Assembly (NCBI GenBank): GCA_977030845.1
Contig: OZ365113.1
Span: 30,566,001-30,630,000, forward strand
Direction: 5' to 3'
Origin: Fimbriosthenelais zetlandica
Lineage: Eukaryota
DNA: 64,000 nt
This document shows, piece by piece, positions 23,901-29,900 of this stretch (its first letter is position 1; every line of letters starts with the position of its first letter). A program made the position numbers.

Positions 23901-26900
23901 CAGTCTTGAACATAACTGTATTTTCAACGATGATTACCGGAAAATCTGTGTATGAGTCAGTGGTGGAATTATGAAATACCACAGCTGTAAAAAATAACAT
24001 AGATTCCCATAGGTTTTACGGTGTTCGTCGTAATAATTGTAATGCATTTTTAAGAATGAGTGCATAAATATTAGCTTGTAATGTCAAAGAATAAGTGTAT
24101 GTGTGTGAACTATACAGGCTAAAGTTTTTGTCACTCAATCAAAACTGTATATAATAAGTCGAAACTGGTCGTTGCCTAGAAACATTTTTCCTGGTATGAA
24201 TTTTTTTGAATGTGAGATATTTGCATTAGATTCAGTAGTTCTTGTTCCGTGAAATCTTTTCTCAGTCCCTAAATACTCGATCTGTATGTCATGAAATTGC
24301 CATGTAAATTGTATAGGTGACTGATGTAAATAAAGTTTTGTACGAACGTTGAACATCAATTTTTTGTGCCTCTTAATACGAATATAATTTCCCCTTTAAT
24401 CAATGCGAACTCTACAGGGCGATGCATTTTGTGCGGGCTTTTCTTTGCTGTATAAACACCAAAGACCCAATTGTATTAATATATTATACTTGCCTTTATC
24501 CATAACATCCTAGACTAGGTCTGCCCAAGAGTTGAGGCCAAAATCCATATAGCCTAGGCCAATAATTATTGCTACAATTATTTTTTGATTGATCATGAGC
24601 ACCATTTTCATGATTTTTAAATAGGCTACCAGTGAAGCTTATTGATCTGCGTACTTTTATAATTTATCTATTGACTTTTTCTCATTCCGGTTTGCCCAAG
24701 TGTTGACTATGTTAAGTATTAAAGATTAAAGAGCTTTCCTCCCATCAAAAGACACCAAGCCGAGAAGTTAGCAAGCAAAGGGAGGCTTCTCAGCGGGTTG
24801 CTATACGAGAGCTTGCTGCGGGAAACGCCTACACATAGAGGTCGCCCTTTGTGAAGTCCAAACTGTGGTCGCAGATTGGAGAGGTGCGAAAACACTCAAA
24901 GGGAGGGCAGAGACGTGATTTTAACACATGCGCCTCTTGAAACCTAGCTGGAATTGTGGGGGGAAGCGGAGGTGCGAACGCAGCGACTCGTTGATTACCA
25001 TTACACAATGTGTTAAGGTTAAGTTGAATGTCCTTTACTTACTAGGGGGTGACGTGGTTAACATGATTAACACACCAAATAATAAATATAATTAGCAAAA
25101 TGATATATTATGCCCCCACTGATGACGTTTTATTATTCATTTTATTGATGCTTTTCCTTATTTTTCTATGCTATGTTCAATAAATAATTTTATTTATCCC
25201 TCAGCAAAGCAGATGGAAGATGTTATATCTTCTGTTGGAAAGATGTAGGCCGTGGTCCATTTTGCTACGAAATACGAGGTGAAAAAAAATATTGATTTGA
25301 CAATTATATATATCGCAGCATCAAATTGCAGGTAAGTCTCGCTTTATTAAATTTACTTTGACACATATATCCAATACTATTTTTACCCATTTAATATATT
25401 TTCTAAAACCCCACTGCCCCCCTTGAAAAACGGACAGCCCCATGTTCAGCTCATTCAATGGACAGGTGTGAAAAGCGCTCGACAAGAAGAAGCGCGAACA
25501 TTGGTCGTGAATGTCGTCTGCCTATAGACGAAGCAATTCACACGAAGGTGTTAACGCGCCAACCTGGATAAAAAGCGGGGCTACAGGTAGCTAGACATCA
25601 TTCACCAGCTCGGCATTCATACAATACACAACTACCATACAGACAGCATTTATAACCACAGCTTCAAGTGTTTCTTACTTGGATTTCTACCAAAAGAAAC
25701 ATACCTGGATTACAATATTTCTAACGATATACTTTGAAACACATTTGATTTCTACAGGTGGTCAAAACTAATTCTATTGGACAACAATATTGATTAACAT
25801 CAAGTGCCAAATTCTACATTATACGCATCCAAATAGGAACTATATTTGAACTTGATTTTGTGCCAACATTTGTTGAGGATTCTTTTCAAAATGACTGAAG
25901 GAAAGAAACAGTGTAGCCCTCGACCAGCAAGAGGAGGTATGGAGGGGACCGGGGTGGGAGGGGCGAGCTCCCCCGAGTCCACCTATACCGAGGTCACGGA
26001 AAGCTCCCTGGTCATTGATGACTCCACTTCCCCCTCATCCTCCCTCTCCTCTTCCCCATTCACTTCCCCAGAAAACAGCAGATCCGCCACGCCCGATCAG
26101 ACCAACAGTGAAGAAGAAATAACTGACGGTAAGTTAAACATATTTTTATATATCATGGAACCAATTAACAATGTTAGGCTAGCCCACGGAAAAACATCAT
26201 GTCCCGAGCTGATTCGGTGAAAATCATATAGACAACATTTTTTATTTGTGTGTACCTTCCCCATTGTATTTTAAGATATAATTTATTTCTAATTAACTTT
26301 TCACTTTATTTGCTTATATTTTATCGATAATTTTTCTGTAATTCATTTTCCCTATCTTGTCATTACAGATGCCAAATCTCTCACCTTAGACACAATGCAT
26401 GCAGCTGCTGTGGACCAGTCCATTTCTAAAACTAAGGGCGGCAGGTTCCTAATTAATCCAGCCCAATTAGCAGCTTTGAATCAGTTACATTCCCAAGTCA
26501 GCCACCCCTCACGCCAGCAATTAGACCAGCTCTCCAAGGAAACTCAACTTTCTGTGAAATCAGTCAAGGTATGCATCCATTAATCTCATCCTCTTTATAA
26601 CAATTATTCTTTTACAATCTATCAGAATAATTATATATAATAGGCCTATATATAATTCTAATAGGCCTTTATACTATAATTAGGCCTAACCTGTAAATAA
26701 TTAGGCCTATAAGTATTTAGGAATACAGAGTGAAACTGACCAAGACTCTCCAATGGCCGATTTTCACTGAAACATATAGCATTTAAGACTCATTTTATTA
26801 AATATTTTCCTTTTCTTATTTCAGCAATGGTTCCAGAACAAACGATCCAAGTGCCGCAAGATGCCCAGAGATGAAAAGCCATGCATCCAGACAGTTAGCA

Positions 26901-29900
26901 ACAATTTGATTGGTAAAGCTTGTCACCGACTGGCCACCAAAGACTCTGCAACAGTTACCGTAAAGCAGGAAAAAACCGAGAAAGCTTCTGAGAAGCGACC
27001 TCAACTGGAAGCAGCGCAGGAAGAGGGAACATCCTACCAGCCCATGACTCAGGTCTCTCTGCCCCCAGACCATCCCTTCTGCCAGCTTTTTGGTCAACAA
27101 ATCAACAAGGCAAAATGTGGAACCCGCGCCTGTCGTCGCCAAAATATTCGCGCTTCTATTGAAAATGCCACAAGCACGCCCATAGCACGTCCAGTTGCTG
27201 CACGTCAGCAAGGCAAAGGTGAACGACGTCGGCAACGTCAGCGTCTCATGACGTCACAACCGCAGACGATAACGTCACAGCAGCAGACTATGGCGTCACA
27301 GCAGCAGACGATGGCGTCACAGCAGCAGACAGCATCTCCAATTGTAATCAGGCCCAAACCACAGACTCCAGATCCACAGACGACATCAGCAATTTGGCGA
27401 CCGATGGCCTTGCCAACAAGCACATCTGAGACTGCACCAAAACGCTCCGAATCACCACTCGACCTCTCTGTCACCTTGAAGAGGAAACGCGAAGAGGCCC
27501 ATAAACCGGAAGTAGAACCAATGATCAAAAGGTCACCACTGGAGCCTGTAGGCGGCGCTATGATACATCCTCTTGCTTATCCAGGTGCTGGATATTATGG
27601 ACAAATCGGACAAACCCTCATACCTACAGTGATTCCTCACATACCATACCCCATGGCACCCCTCGCTTTATACGGACAGTCCCATCACCACCTCTGGGCA
27701 TCAGGATTACCTCGGTTTGCTTGTGCCCCTGGCAGCGCCATGTGAACAGAAATTCAACATTTGTTACATATTTTTTATCTTGTTTTTGCCTGTTGAACAG
27801 ATCTTGAGCAGTGTTATGGACTGGAGTAGGCACACTGCATCAAAATGGTCGTTCAATTTTTATCAGAATAATTCAATTTTTCGCCGAATTTTCGGGATAA
27901 ATGAATGAACTGTCGCTTACATGAATTAATTTATTGTGATTGAATAGGCCTACAGCATGCGAATATAATTTTGTAATGTAATGCCATCGTTTTTTGGTAC
28001 AAATATTGAAGGAGTCCCTAATTTATAAACTCCCGAATCTTTGGCTTAGAATTATTGTGATGCTATAATTATTTTTCGGTGTAATATGGATATTCGCCTT
28101 GTGTATTATGTAAATAGTTAATTATTAGTAATATATTAGTCACATATATCTAGAACGAATATGTTTATTTGTGGCAAGGTTTTGTTATACCTGTTATGAC
28201 TTTGTTATAATACGGAATGTCTTCATACAACTTTCTAAATAAAATTTTAATTCCAAATTAAATCCTTTGTCATTTATTCTATGGGTTGGCCTCTTTCCCG
28301 CCAAATGTTATCCTAAAATATTATTTCCTTGGCCTTTCTGGTCACACCACCTTTTCTTGAACAACCGATTGTTAAACTCAAACGTTACCTGACCAATCAG
28401 GTGCGAACCTCAAAAGTACCTCAGTGGTCAGTCACTATATATTAGGAGAGTTGTAAGCCTTGTAGGATCACTCTCATCAAGGGCAGCAAAGGAGAACCTC
28501 CTTTCTGCCACCTCACGTCGCTGATCCCAAGATGGGAGTCATTACCATTGGCCCAAGGCAACCTTTATTATTGTAAGTTCGACTTTTATGTCTTCACAAT
28601 CATTGGATAATATTGTTATCATTCAAACATACTGGGTACAATTCATATCAAACAGTCATGTCGGGTTTCTGAAATTGAATCGGAGCCAATAAGGAGTTTG
28701 TCCGTCAGTTACATGTACGTTCCTACCCCTTTCTATAATTATACACCACTTATACAGCCACTTAGAGTGAATACATTTAATTAATAGCATTATTTTGATA
28801 ATTAATTTTCTGGTTTCATGAAGTTGTGCACTAATTGGGTGAATACACTGTATGTAAGTTTAATACATTTACCGCACCACTAAATGTTTCTGAATAAGTT
28901 AACACTGTTACAGCATACAATACAACATTGACCATCGTTATATGACCTGAGTTATTTCCAGTGCTGGTTTCATTATATTAGTAGGCCTACTGTACGTAAA
29001 TCCCGAGATTCTGATCTTACCAATATGAATATAATTCACAACAGCTATAAATGAATCGCAAATGATGATATCAAGTAGAAATGAACAGATCATTTTTTTA
29101 TCTGCCACTTGATTCTAATCCCGGCAAGGCAATGTCAAGTACATGCTTGATACTTGGTATAACATGATCTGCCAAAGGATCAAGCTCTTGGACGCGGCCC
29201 ACCCCTGACAGAACCCCAACCGTAGCTCCAAGCTGAGCCGACCTTCCCATTCCCAGATCTGCTGTAGTGTCCCCAATCATAATAGCATGTGCTGGATCGA
29301 CTTTCAACTCAGAACAGATTGTCAAAGCATTTTTTGCTGCTGGTTTAGGAACAGATCCTTTGTCATCACCACAAACGATGGCGTCCACATAGTCAAGGAG
29401 ATCAAGGTGCTGTAGGAAATCTTCAGTCGAAGCTCTGTTATCAGCGGTGCACACGGCCACCTTGATCCCATTGTCCTTCAAAATCCTGAACAAACTCAAT
29501 GGGTTATCCACCTGCTTAAAGCCAAGCTTGTTGTTTTTGCTGGATTTCGTCCAGCTCCGGTGGATGATGTCCTGAGCTTGGTCAGGATGGATGCCATGTT
29601 TCTGTAGGATCTGGGAAACCTTGGTCTGAATTTGCGTATCAGTGCCCTCGGCGAATAAGCCAGACTTCCAGGACTTAGTTTCGTTACAGTATCCCAACTC
29701 TCTGAGGATGTCAGAACGCAAATTCAAACCTGAGACACGCTCAAGACTGAAAAAAATATCCATCGAAAACAGATTAGATCGGTTAAAAACATGAGATAAA
29801 TTGACTTTCGTGCTTTACACAATTAAACGACATGTACTTACTCGCTAATAATACGATCCATCCAAGGTGACCATAGTGTGTTGAAGCATAGCAGCGTCCC

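What the first reader, a model, noticed from the sequence alone, without database searches (positions are those of the whole stretch)
25891..27745. Orphan-like divergent homeobox gene
Seen: the recognition helix is intact (WFQNKR, Q50), but normally conserved positions are replaced (F8>I, F20>H, Y25>H, R31>L). I cannot assign it to any classical family. Established: a 46/47 intron is typical of PRD-class genes, and lineage-specific, fast-evolving homeobox genes are often expressed in early embryos. Inference: this is a lineage-restricted transcription factor, possibly an undescribed family. It has its own candidate TATA/Inr and an AT-rich 3' UTR (AATAAA at 28238).
Basis: partly seen in the sequence, partly recalled or inferred. 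Interest (0 to 1): 0.65.

Follow-up and report, generated by a model that had tools for sequence, protein, structure and literature searches.

The report
Divergent homeobox gene with co-repressor motif
This is a real three-exon gene for a very divergent homeodomain transcription factor whose long flexible tail carries a conserved co-repressor docking motif, so it is probably a gene-silencing regulator limited to a narrow animal lineage.

Summary
Window 25891-27745 (+) carries a three-exon, 452-codon open gene model with canonical GT-AG introns of 240 and 256 nt. Exons are 47-57% GC and introns 28%. Exon 2 alone passes Pfam's Homeodomain cut-off (26.4 bits against 22.9). It ends at homeodomain position 46, and exon 3 opens with QWFQNKR (positions 47-53). 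I8, H20, H25 and L31 are all as reported.

The homeodomain has no close relative. phmmer of exon 2 against 1.84 billion representatives gave one hit at E<=0.001, a repeat protein without a homeodomain. The best solved structures are ZFHX3 homeodomain 3 (E 0.39) and NANOG (E about 1).

The 306-residue tail has one related cluster, from unnamed contigs, at 45.5% identity. The tail is predicted disordered. Its longest invariant block is RSESPLDLSVTL followed by KRKR, a CtBP-type PLDLS motif next to a basic patch.

Best reading: a sequence-specific repressor of an unassigned homeobox family. "Orphan" is only partly supported, because the host lineage looks poorly sampled and no homeodomain tree could be built. 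The exons were searched separately; the joined protein was never made.

The parts
25891..26128 (+). Exon 1: ATG plus 79 codons and 1 base. Ser/Thr/Pro- and acid-rich N-terminus (P0001).
   Evidence: GC 0.567 against 0.39 upstream. In-frame stop 18 codons upstream of the ATG. 0 Pfam families. Not searched in the large sequence libraries.
26129..26368 (+). Intron 1, 240 nt, phase 1, GTAAGT...polypyrimidine...CAG
   Evidence: GC 0.283. Read-through hits a stop at 26218-26220.
26369..26568 (+). Exon 2 (P0002 from 26371). Linker plus homeodomain positions 1-46; the homeodomain part is 26431-26568.
   Evidence: Pfam PF00046 at 26.4 bits, above the 22.9 cut-off, E 6.1e-06. AlphaFold on the exon alone gives helices at residues 30-42 and 48-58, which are homeodomain positions 10-22 and 28-38, with pLDDT 72-78 there.
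26569..26824 (+). Intron 2, 256 nt, phase 0, lying between homeodomain codons 46 and 47
   Evidence: GC 0.281. Read-through stops after 4 codons (ORF 26293-26583).
26825..26866 (+). Start of exon 3: homeodomain positions 47-60 (QWFQNKRSKCRKMP), the recognition helix with W48 F49 Q50 N51 R53
   Evidence: Only W[FY]xNxR match in the six frames of the window.
26867..27745 (+). Rest of exon 3: about 290-residue tail predicted disordered, with conserved short blocks, ending in TGA
   Evidence: AlphaFold with alignment A1 gives mean pLDDT 42.3, with 0 of 306 residues at or above 70. 116 of 255 aligned positions are identical to P0004.
27035..27088 (+). Conserved block YQPMTQV-x-LPPDHPFCQL, function unknown
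   Evidence: Invariant runs of 7 and 10 residues against P0004/P0006.
27248..27330 (+). In-frame 21-nt tandem repeat, 4.0 copies (MASQQQT-type), absent from the relative
   Evidence: TRF score 124, 88% matches. This stretch is a gap in P0004/P0006.
27443..27490 (+). RSESPLDLSVTL followed by KRKR: a PxDLS (CtBP-type) motif at 27455-27469 with an adjacent basic patch (candidate nuclear localisation signal)
   Evidence: Longest invariant run of the alignment (12 residues plus 4). PLDLS is expected 1.2e-4 times per protein of this composition. It is the only PLDLS in the six frames of the window.
28238..28243 (+). Candidate poly(A) signal AATAAA, about 490 nt after the stop codon
   Evidence: First + strand A[AT]TAAA after the stop. 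The 3' stretch 27746-28260 is 0.295 GC. Usage not shown.

Best explanation
A genuine, spliced, protein-coding homeobox gene of 3 exons and 452 codons. It encodes a single Q50 homeodomain followed by a long intrinsically disordered tail.

The homeodomain keeps the residues that contact DNA or hold the recognition helix: R5, W48, F49, Q50, N51, R53, K55 and R57. Core and surface positions 8, 20, 25, 31, 42, 47 and 54 are replaced. The protein therefore most likely still binds DNA, with an unusual specificity.

The tail carries a strictly conserved PLDLS motif next to KRKR. The most likely mechanism is nuclear import, binding to specific sites through the homeodomain, and recruitment of the CtBP co-repressor through PLDLS to silence target genes.

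The gene belongs to no homeobox family I could identify. The 46/47 intron hints at PRD-class ancestry, and the weak best sequence matches point to Zfhx-type homeodomains.

Shown: the gene structure, the homeodomain, the conservation of the tail blocks, and the lack of close relatives in the libraries searched.

Inferred: DNA binding, CtBP binding, repression, and lineage restriction.
For: - Gene structure: canonical splice sites and compatible phases. Exon GC is 0.47-0.57 against intron GC of 0.28.
- Homeodomain: Pfam match above the cut-off on exon 2 alone, ending at profile position 45, with WFQNKR starting exon 3. Helices 1 and 2 are predicted where a homeodomain has them. In the Atlas, 10 of the 10 best family-bearing hits for exon 2 are homeodomain clusters, though the best score is only 0.79.
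- Selection: the tail exon is 45.5% identical (116 of 255) to P0004/P0006, with identity concentrated in blocks. The longest block holds PLDLS and KRKR.
- PLDLS by chance: 1.2e-4 expected per protein of this composition.
- PLDLS function: it is the motif through which diverse transcription factors bind a hydrophobic cleft of CtBP (PMC9907507, passages).
- Tail: predicted disordered, as expected for a region that works through short linear motifs.
- No accessory domain: 0 C2H2 matches in six frames; 0 of 122 small upstream + strand ORFs had a Pfam hit; none of the 140 ORFs of 65 aa or more that I scanned, of 163 in the window, showed a paired, LIM, POU, CUT or zinc-finger domain.
- No alternative on the other frames: of 10 overlapping or antisense ORFs, 9 had no Pfam family and 1 had a sub-threshold DUF5979 match.
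Against: - No transcript or expression evidence.
- The homeodomain of the only relative could not be seen, because P0004/P0006 begin at the Met equivalent to homeodomain position 59. Conservation of the odd residues is therefore unknown.
- H20, H25 and Q47 sit at positions that usually support the fold or contact DNA (recalled), so DNA binding could be weakened.
- CtBP binding is untested, and no CtBP sequence was available to the complex tool.
- The host organism is unknown. If it were a non-bilaterian, a close CtBP might be missing: PMC9907507 (passages) found no close homologue in Cnidaria or Porifera.
- The absence of relatives comes from exon-wise searches. These are less sensitive than a search with the whole homeodomain.
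Confidence: 0.6

Rival explanations
1. It is not an orphan. It is a fast-evolving member of an existing class or family, either a PRD-class derivative or a gene that captured a Zfhx-type homeodomain. A proper tree with a full reference set and better-sampled relatives would place it.
For: - The 46/47 intron is shared with many PRD-class homeodomains and was used to place HOPX and LEUTX (PMC2211742, passages).
- The top sequence hit and the top two fold hits in the PDB are ZFHX3/ATBF1 homeodomains. The aligned homeodomain 3 shares I8, P10, Q12-L13, L16, P26, R28 and L31-D32.
- HOMEZ shows that a ZF-class gene can lack zinc fingers (PMC2211742, passages).
- The libraries seem to sample the host lineage thinly.
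Against: - All these matches are non-significant: E 0.39, and 0 of 24 Foldseek matches at E<=0.001.
- No homeodomain protein reached E<=0.001 among 1.84 billion representatives.
- No zinc finger and no second homeodomain in the window.
- No paired domain or OAR found.
Confidence: 0.3
2. The homeodomain no longer binds DNA, as in HOPX. The protein acts as a scaffold or adaptor that brings CtBP or other partners to other factors.
For: - Unusual residues at 20, 25, 31 and 47.
- Among the nearest Atlas clusters is 'Homeodomain-only protein', at score 0.77.
- HOPX shares the 46/47 intron and cannot bind DNA (PMC2211742, passages).
Against: - R5, W48, F49, Q50, N51, R53 and K55 are all retained.
- There is no insertion between helices 1 and 2 of the kind described for HOPX, and the helices are predicted at canonical spacing.
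- The Atlas score is below the level the tool itself calls more than a lead.
Confidence: 0.1
3. The PLDLS block is conserved for a reason other than CtBP, such as another partner or a degron. The protein would then be an activator or a context-dependent regulator.
For: - Binding is untested.
- The other invariant blocks (YQPMTQV-x-LPPDHPFCQL, WRPM, the C-terminal PRF-x-C) match nothing known and may carry the main activity.
- The acidic, Ser/Thr-rich exon 1 resembles activation regions. That resemblance is recalled, not tested.
Against: An exact PLDLS, the canonical E1A-type motif (PMC9907507, passages), sits inside the longest invariant run. This is the simplest reading.
Confidence: 0.2
4. 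It is a pseudogene or a chance ORF and has no function.
For: No expression data. No annotated protein for it in the libraries searched.
Against: - A 452-codon frame kept open across three exons with perfect splice signals.
- Sharp GC contrast between exons and introns.
- Block-wise conservation with a relative at 45.5% identity.
- A Pfam match above the cut-off.
Confidence: 0.04

Closest known systems
PRD-class (paired-like, Q50) homeobox genes, including divergent members such as HOPX and LEUTX
   Same: Intron between homeodomain codons 46 and 47 (PMC2211742 passages). Q50. A single homeodomain with no other folded domain.
   Different: Lacks F8, F20, Y25 and R31 (that these are the usual residues is recalled). 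No paired domain or OAR detected. The single eh1-type regex I used also gave no match inside the gene. No significant sequence match to any PRD homeodomain.
ZF-class Zfhx homeodomains (ZFHX3/ATBF1 homeodomain 3, PDB 2da3)
   Same: Best PDB hit by sequence and by fold. Shares I8, P10, Q12-L13, L16, P26, R28 and L31-D32, with 37% identity over 38 columns.
   Different: E 0.39 and 1.6, so not significant. No C2H2 zinc finger and only one homeodomain in the window. The protein is 452 residues rather than thousands (the size of Zfhx proteins is recalled).
CtBP-recruiting homeodomain repressors (ZEB1/2, TGIF)
   Same: An exact PLDLS motif outside the homeodomain, conserved in the relative. ZEB and TGIF appear as CtBP partners in the titles and abstract starts listed.
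   Different: Not a TALE homeodomain: it has no three-residue loop insertion, since the Pfam match runs without a gap over profile positions 3-45. No zinc fingers. This is a functional analogy only, with no detected homology.
NANOG
   Same: Second and third best PDB sequence hits, at E 1 and 1.3. Q50. A divergent homeodomain.
   Different: The NANOG intron is at 44/45 (PMC2211742 passage), not 46/47. The matches are not significant.
Lineage-specific 'novel' homeobox clades (17 lophotrochozoan clades in the oyster study; eutherian ETCHbox genes)
   Same: Divergent, hard to place, and restricted in distribution. This is the general phenomenon the present gene would belong to (PMC5322547 passages; PMC4904359 abstract start).
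   Different: Membership of any of those clades could not be tested. The host taxon is unknown, their sequences lie in supplements that are closed, and no reference sequences were obtainable.

Membership tests
Homeodomain superfamily (Pfam PF00046) | Match to the homeodomain profile above the curated cut-off | tested here: met
   Exon 2 alone scores 26.4 bits against a cut-off of 22.9, E 6.1e-06, profile positions 3-45 of 57.
Homeodomain superfamily (Pfam PF00046) | Recognition helix with W48, F49, N51 and R53, contiguous with helices 1 and 2 | tested here: met
   Exon 3 begins QWFQNKR in the phase-compatible frame. Helices 1 and 2 are predicted at canonical positions. The joined 60-residue domain was not assembled or folded, by operator rule.
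PRD class | Intron at homeodomain position 46/47 (seen in many but not all members) | tested here: met
   Exon 2 ends after K46 and exon 3 starts at Q47. Criterion taken from PMC2211742 passages.
PRD class | The combination of residues invariant across PRD-class homeodomains | tested here: inconclusive
   The list is in Additional file 6 of PMC2211742, and supplements are closed. From recall, F8, F20 and R31 belong to it and are replaced here.
PRD class | Groups with PRD-class homeodomains in a phylogeny | not testable with these tools
   No reference homeodomain set could be fetched. All homologue searches gave no named homeodomain.
PRD class | Accessory paired domain, OAR or octapeptide/eh1 (present in some families) | tested here: not met
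   0 such Pfam hits in the gene's exons, in the 122 small upstream + strand ORFs or in the 140 ORFs of 65 aa or more that I scanned, of 163 in the window. No match to the eh1-type regex inside the gene. These features are not obligatory for the class.
ZF class (Zfhx type) | C2H2 zinc fingers in the same protein | tested here: not met
   0 matches to a C2H2 pattern in six frames of the whole window. No zf Pfam hit except a SWIM finger in a transposon-like ORF at 44462-44788.
ZF class (Zfhx type) | Several homeodomains per protein | tested here: not met
   One W[FY]xNxR in six frames. tblastn of the exons against the window finds only themselves.
ZF class (Zfhx type) | Significant homeodomain similarity to Zfhx homeodomains | tested here: inconclusive
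   Best PDB hit is 2da3, but at E 0.39. Foldseek E 1.6.
CtBP-dependent repressors (functional group, not a homology family) | PxDLS motif in an accessible (disordered) region | tested here: met
   PLDLS at 27455-27469, in a region with pLDDT below 50.
CtBP-dependent repressors (functional group, not a homology family) | Motif under selection | tested here: met
   It lies in the longest invariant run, RSESPLDLSVTL followed by KRKR, of an alignment that is 45.5% identical overall. Only one related source is available.
CtBP-dependent repressors (functional group, not a homology family) | Physical binding to CtBP and repression | not testable with these tools
   Complex prediction accepts only the session's own sequences or bacterial, archaeal and phage references. 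No CtBP gene lies in the window.
HOPX-like non-DNA-binding homeodomain | One-residue insertion between helices I and II, and loss of DNA binding | tested here: not met
   The Pfam match is ungapped over profile positions 3-45 for 43 residues. DNA-contact residues are retained. The HOPX description comes from PMC2211742 passages. DNA binding itself is untested.

The most novel reading that the evidence does not exclude
This is the founding member of an undescribed, lineage-restricted homeobox family. It would be a single-homeodomain, CtBP-recruiting repressor whose homeodomain combines a PRD-type 46/47 intron with Zfhx-type residues (I8, L31-D32, an xPS turn). Its tail would carry a new set of conserved linear motifs (YQPMTQV-x-LPPDHPFCQL, WRPM, PRF-x-C) that dock partners not yet known.
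Probability: 0.35. Interest if true: 0.45.

Novelty: new member of a known kind. Interest (0 to 1): 0.33.

Why it matters
Homeobox genes are mostly ancient and easy to classify. The exceptions are young or fast-evolving genes that get wired into development in particular lineages, as the oyster 'novel' clades and the eutherian ETCHbox genes show.

This gene adds one such case, and it comes with a concrete, testable mechanism: a conserved PLDLS motif that should recruit CtBP.

If the family proves restricted to one clade, it would be a handle on how a new repressor enters a developmental network. If a tree places it in a known family, it is simply a divergent orthologue.

Either way it is a homeodomain transcription factor of a familiar kind, so the interest is moderate.

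Tried and rejected
1. Word-index search of exon 2 among longer proteins (117-2000 aa): 637 candidates, none at E<=0.01.

2. phmmer of exon 2 against 1.84 billion representatives: 1 hit at E<=0.001, P0005 (1686 aa). It has no Pfam homeodomain and matches through four copies of an internal repeat, so I rejected it as spurious.

3. Word-index search of exon 3 (168-536 aa only): 1 of 1172 candidates passed, namely P0004.

4. Atlas look-alikes: best score 0.79 for both exon 2 and exon 3. That is below the level the tool calls more than a lead.

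5. Foldseek of the exon 2 model against the PDB: 0 of 24 matches at E<=0.001. The model had only pLDDT 59.9.

6. Attempt to place the host organism through a neighbouring intronless EamA gene: 5357 candidates, none at E<=1e-10. I set the threshold too strictly and the call was wasted, so the taxon stays unknown.

7. PDB search of the supposed SLMAP coiled-coil ORF: only yeast SSO1 at E 0.048. SLMAP is therefore unverified.

8. Full-text search for three peptide words of the protein: 0 papers.

9. Rfam at gathering thresholds: 0 matches in the window.

10. Search for a paralogue in the window by tblastn: none. One search was killed by the sandbox and rerun.

11. Complex prediction was not used, because no CtBP sequence may be supplied.

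13. The joined exon 1-2-3 protein was never assembled, searched or folded, by operator rule.

The region has 240-256 nt AT-rich introns, three intronless EamA paralogues and intact transposase ORFs.

Full report
WHAT IS THERE

The + strand of window 25891-27745 holds a clean three-exon gene model. Exon 1 runs 25891-26128 and starts at an ATG that has an in-frame stop 18 codons upstream. Exon 2 runs 26369-26568. Exon 3 runs 26825-27745 and ends in TGA. Both introns, of 240 and 256 nt, have GT...AG ends, good donor sites (GTAAGT, GTATGC) and polypyrimidine tracts before the acceptor. Both contain in-frame stops if read through.

The exon lengths (238, 200 and 921 nt) sum to 1359 nt, which is 452 codons plus the stop, and the intron phases (1 and 0) are compatible. 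Exons are 0.567, 0.465 and 0.520 GC. The introns are 0.283 and 0.281 GC, and the 3' stretch is 0.295. This contrast is not something a chance ORF would show.

I translated the exons separately as P0001, P0002 and P0003. The joined protein was never assembled, searched or folded.

THE HOMEODOMAIN

Exon 2 alone matches Pfam Homeodomain above the curated cut-off: 26.4 bits against 22.9, E 6.1e-06, residues 24-66 on profile positions 3-45 of 57. The match stops at the last codon of the exon, which is homeodomain position 46. Exon 3 opens with Q47 W48 F49 Q50 N51 K52 R53.

WFQNKR is the only W[FY]xNxR match in all six frames of the 64 kb window. Counting back from K46 gives R5, I8, L16, H20, H25, P26, L31 and L40, so the reported replacements are real. 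That F8, F20, Y25 and R31 are the usual residues is textbook knowledge that I recall; no tool gave it.

AlphaFold on exon 2 alone gave a modest model (pLDDT 59.9). Its helices lie at residues 30-42 and 48-58, which are homeodomain positions 10-22 and 28-38, where helices 1 and 2 belong.

The residues that normally contact DNA or anchor helix 3 are kept: R5, W48, F49, Q50, N51, R53 and K55. I therefore infer that DNA binding is retained. Position 31 is L and position 42 is V. In many homeodomains these two form an R-E salt bridge (recalled), so a paired hydrophobic replacement is plausible. That is inference only.

HOW ISOLATED IS IT?

- phmmer of exon 2 against 1,835,955,588 representative proteins gave one protein at E<=0.001. 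It is a 1686-residue repeat protein with no Pfam homeodomain, and it matches through four copies of an internal repeat. I reject it as a relative, so no homeodomain protein reached that threshold.
- The word-index search among longer proteins found nothing: 637 candidates, none at E<=0.01.
- Against the PDB, 3 sequences scored at E<=10: ZFHX3/ATBF1 homeodomain 3 (2da3, E 0.39) and two NANOG chains (E 1 and 1.3).
- Foldseek with the exon 2 model gave 0 of 24 matches at E<=0.001. Most are homeodomains, led by two ATBF1 homeodomains, with ZHX2 and ZHX1 homeodomains also near the top.
- The Atlas recognises a homeodomain: all ten best family-bearing hits are homeodomain clusters. Its best score is only 0.79, for DUX-like, homeodomain-only and nematode clusters.

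The ZFHX3 homeodomain 3 alignment shares I8 and L31-D32 with this gene, so two of the four 'odd' residues have a precedent. These are leads, not assignments.

One caveat applies to all of this. Exon 2 lacks helix 3, the best conserved part of the domain, so exon-wise searches are less sensitive than a search with the whole domain.

THE TAIL

The 306-residue exon 3 product found one related cluster among 1172 candidates of 168-536 aa. The cluster holds P0004 (275 aa) and P0006 (301 aa), both ORFs from short unnamed contigs. Both begin at the Met that corresponds to homeodomain position 59, so their homeodomains are not visible.

Identity is 116 of 255 aligned positions, or 45.5%, and it is concentrated in blocks:
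- YQPMTQV
- LPPDHPFCQL
- ERRR
- WRPM
- RSESPLDLSVTL followed by KRKR
- GQTL
- YGQS
- a C-terminal PRF-x-C

AlphaFold with this alignment predicts no folded domain: mean pLDDT is 42.3 and 0 of 306 residues reach 70. Pfam finds nothing meaningful. The tail therefore looks like a disordered region that works through short linear motifs.

A 21-nt in-frame tandem repeat (27248-27330, 4.0 copies) is absent from the relative, so it is probably a recent expansion.

MECHANISM

The longest invariant run contains an exact PLDLS. By composition this motif is expected 1.2e-4 times in such a protein, and it is the only PLDLS in the six frames of the window.

PLDLS is the motif by which E1A and many cellular transcription factors bind a hydrophobic cleft of the co-repressor CtBP (PMC9907507, passages read; abstract start of PMC2749851 seen). 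It is followed directly by KRKR, a plausible nuclear localisation signal (inference).

My best explanation is a nuclear, sequence-specific repressor that recruits CtBP. Three steps are inferred and untested: DNA binding, CtBP binding and repression. The same paper found no close CtBP in Cnidaria or Porifera. The reading therefore presumes a bilaterian host, which I could not establish.

CLASSIFICATION

[quoted passage not shown] NANOG has its intron at 44/45 (same passages), which argues against the NANOG lead.

No accessory domain that would define a class was found:
- 0 C2H2 patterns in six frames.
- No paired, LIM, POU, CUT or zinc-finger Pfam hit in the 140 ORFs of 65 aa or more that I scanned, out of 163 in the window. 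Of the 23 I left out, 13 lie in or over this gene: two are the frames that hold exons 2 and 3, covered as P0002 and P0003, seven went, and four (25837-26217 +, which holds exon 1 and was covered as P0001; 25895-26119 +; 26819-27253 -; 27241-27576 -) went to or 47. The other 10 overlap the three EamA ORFs or the YqaJ and transposase ORFs (35782-36027 -, 38167-38400 -, 38201-38458 -, 38735-38959 -, 38912-39121 +, 39256-39525 -, 39264-39515 +, 39751-39987 +, 40669-40869 +, and 45306-45533 -, 45586-45786 -, 45644-46150 -, 48913-49152 +, of which the ones listed make up the remainder); these were not scanned.
- No Pfam hit in any of the 122 + strand ORFs of 38-64 aa upstream (0 of 122).
- The ORFs on other frames and on the opposite strand of the gene carry nothing: 9 of 10 had no family, and 1 had a sub-threshold DUF match.

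I could not build a homeodomain tree, which is the decisive test. The supplement that lists the PRD-class invariant residues is closed.

The gene is therefore best described as an unassigned homeobox gene with a PRD-type intron and weak Zfhx-like sequence features.

SURROUNDINGS

Upstream on the + strand, the nearest coding-like signal is a coiled-coil ORF at 17892-18176. Its DUF7491 match is below the cut-off and it has no convincing PDB match.

A GST gene lies on the minus strand at 14571-16230. Downstream, and convergent with this gene, are HAD-hydrolase ORFs at 29101-29814, 29841-30266 and 30391-30756 on the minus strand. Further along are three intronless EamA-type transporter paralogues and transposon-derived ORFs. 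No paralogue of the homeobox gene lies in the window.

AATAAA at 28238 is the first such signal on the + strand after the stop codon. The hexamer is common in this AT-rich DNA. Promoter claims could not be tested.

NOVELTY AND VERDICT

Divergent, lineage-specific homeobox genes are a known phenomenon. The oyster study defined 17 novel lophotrochozoan clades, with 67% peaking early in development (PMC5322547, passages). The eutherian ETCHbox genes are another example (PMC4904359 and PMC8208926, abstract starts only). CtBP-recruiting homeodomain proteins are also known; ZEB and TGIF appear as such in the listing.

This is therefore a new member of a known kind, possibly the first described member of a new family. 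A full-text search for three of its peptide words found 0 papers. That says little, because papers rarely print such strings.

The evidence for 'lineage-restricted' is absence of hits in libraries that appear to sample this lineage poorly. A neighbouring gene found nothing at E<=1e-10, although I set that threshold too strictly.

Several things stayed unchecked:
- the closed metagenome and viral contig collections;
- exon 1 in any large library;
- exon 3 in the 'longer' and 'shorter' length ranges and in the representative library;
- all paper supplements;
- the host taxon.

Noticed in passing
window 14571-16230 (-): Exons of a glutathione S-transferase gene: GST_N_2 at 2e-17 for 15979-16230 and GST_C at 9.5e-07 for 14571-14798. 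It lies on the strand opposite to the coiled-coil ORFs and may be nested in, or next to, the upstream gene.
   Followed up: no
window 17892-18176 (+): A coiled-coil ORF with a sub-threshold DUF7491 match (20.3 bits against 30). Its only PDB hit is yeast SSO1 at E 0.048.
   Followed up: partly
window 29101-30756 (-): Two adjacent HAD-superfamily hydrolase units: 29101-29814, and 29841-30266 together with 30391-30756. They look like a tandem duplicate, and they are convergent with the homeobox gene with about 0.8 kb between the 3' ends.
   Followed up: partly
window 35061-36329 (-), 37365-38576 (+), 39342-40613 (-): Three intronless paralogous ORFs of about 400-424 aa with an EamA transporter domain. 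A word-index search with the middle one found nothing at E<=1e-10 among 5357 candidates, which suggests a thinly sampled or fast-evolving lineage.
   Followed up: partly
window 44462-46204 (+): A SWIM zinc-finger ORF followed by a 339-aa ORF with a YqaJ-like recombinase/exonuclease domain (2.7e-22). It is probably part of a mobile element.
   Followed up: no
window 48723-49820 (-) and 51334-51633 (-): An intact-looking 366-aa Harbinger/PIF-type DDE transposase ORF (DDE_Tnp_4 at 7.9e-42, plus HTH_Tnp_4), with a THAP-domain ORF about 1.5 kb away on the same strand.
   Followed up: no
window 27248-27330 (+): An in-frame 21-nt tandem repeat (4.0 copies, 88% matches) encoding MASQQQT-type units inside the homeobox gene's tail. 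It is absent from the only relative, so it is likely a recent expansion and may vary in length between individuals.
   Followed up: partly
window 26600-26720 (+), intron 2: Several copies of a short AT-flanked AGGCCT-containing string (such as TAGGCCTA or TTAGGCCT) recur within about 100 nt of intron 2. No tandem-repeat row covered them, and their meaning is unknown.
   Followed up: no
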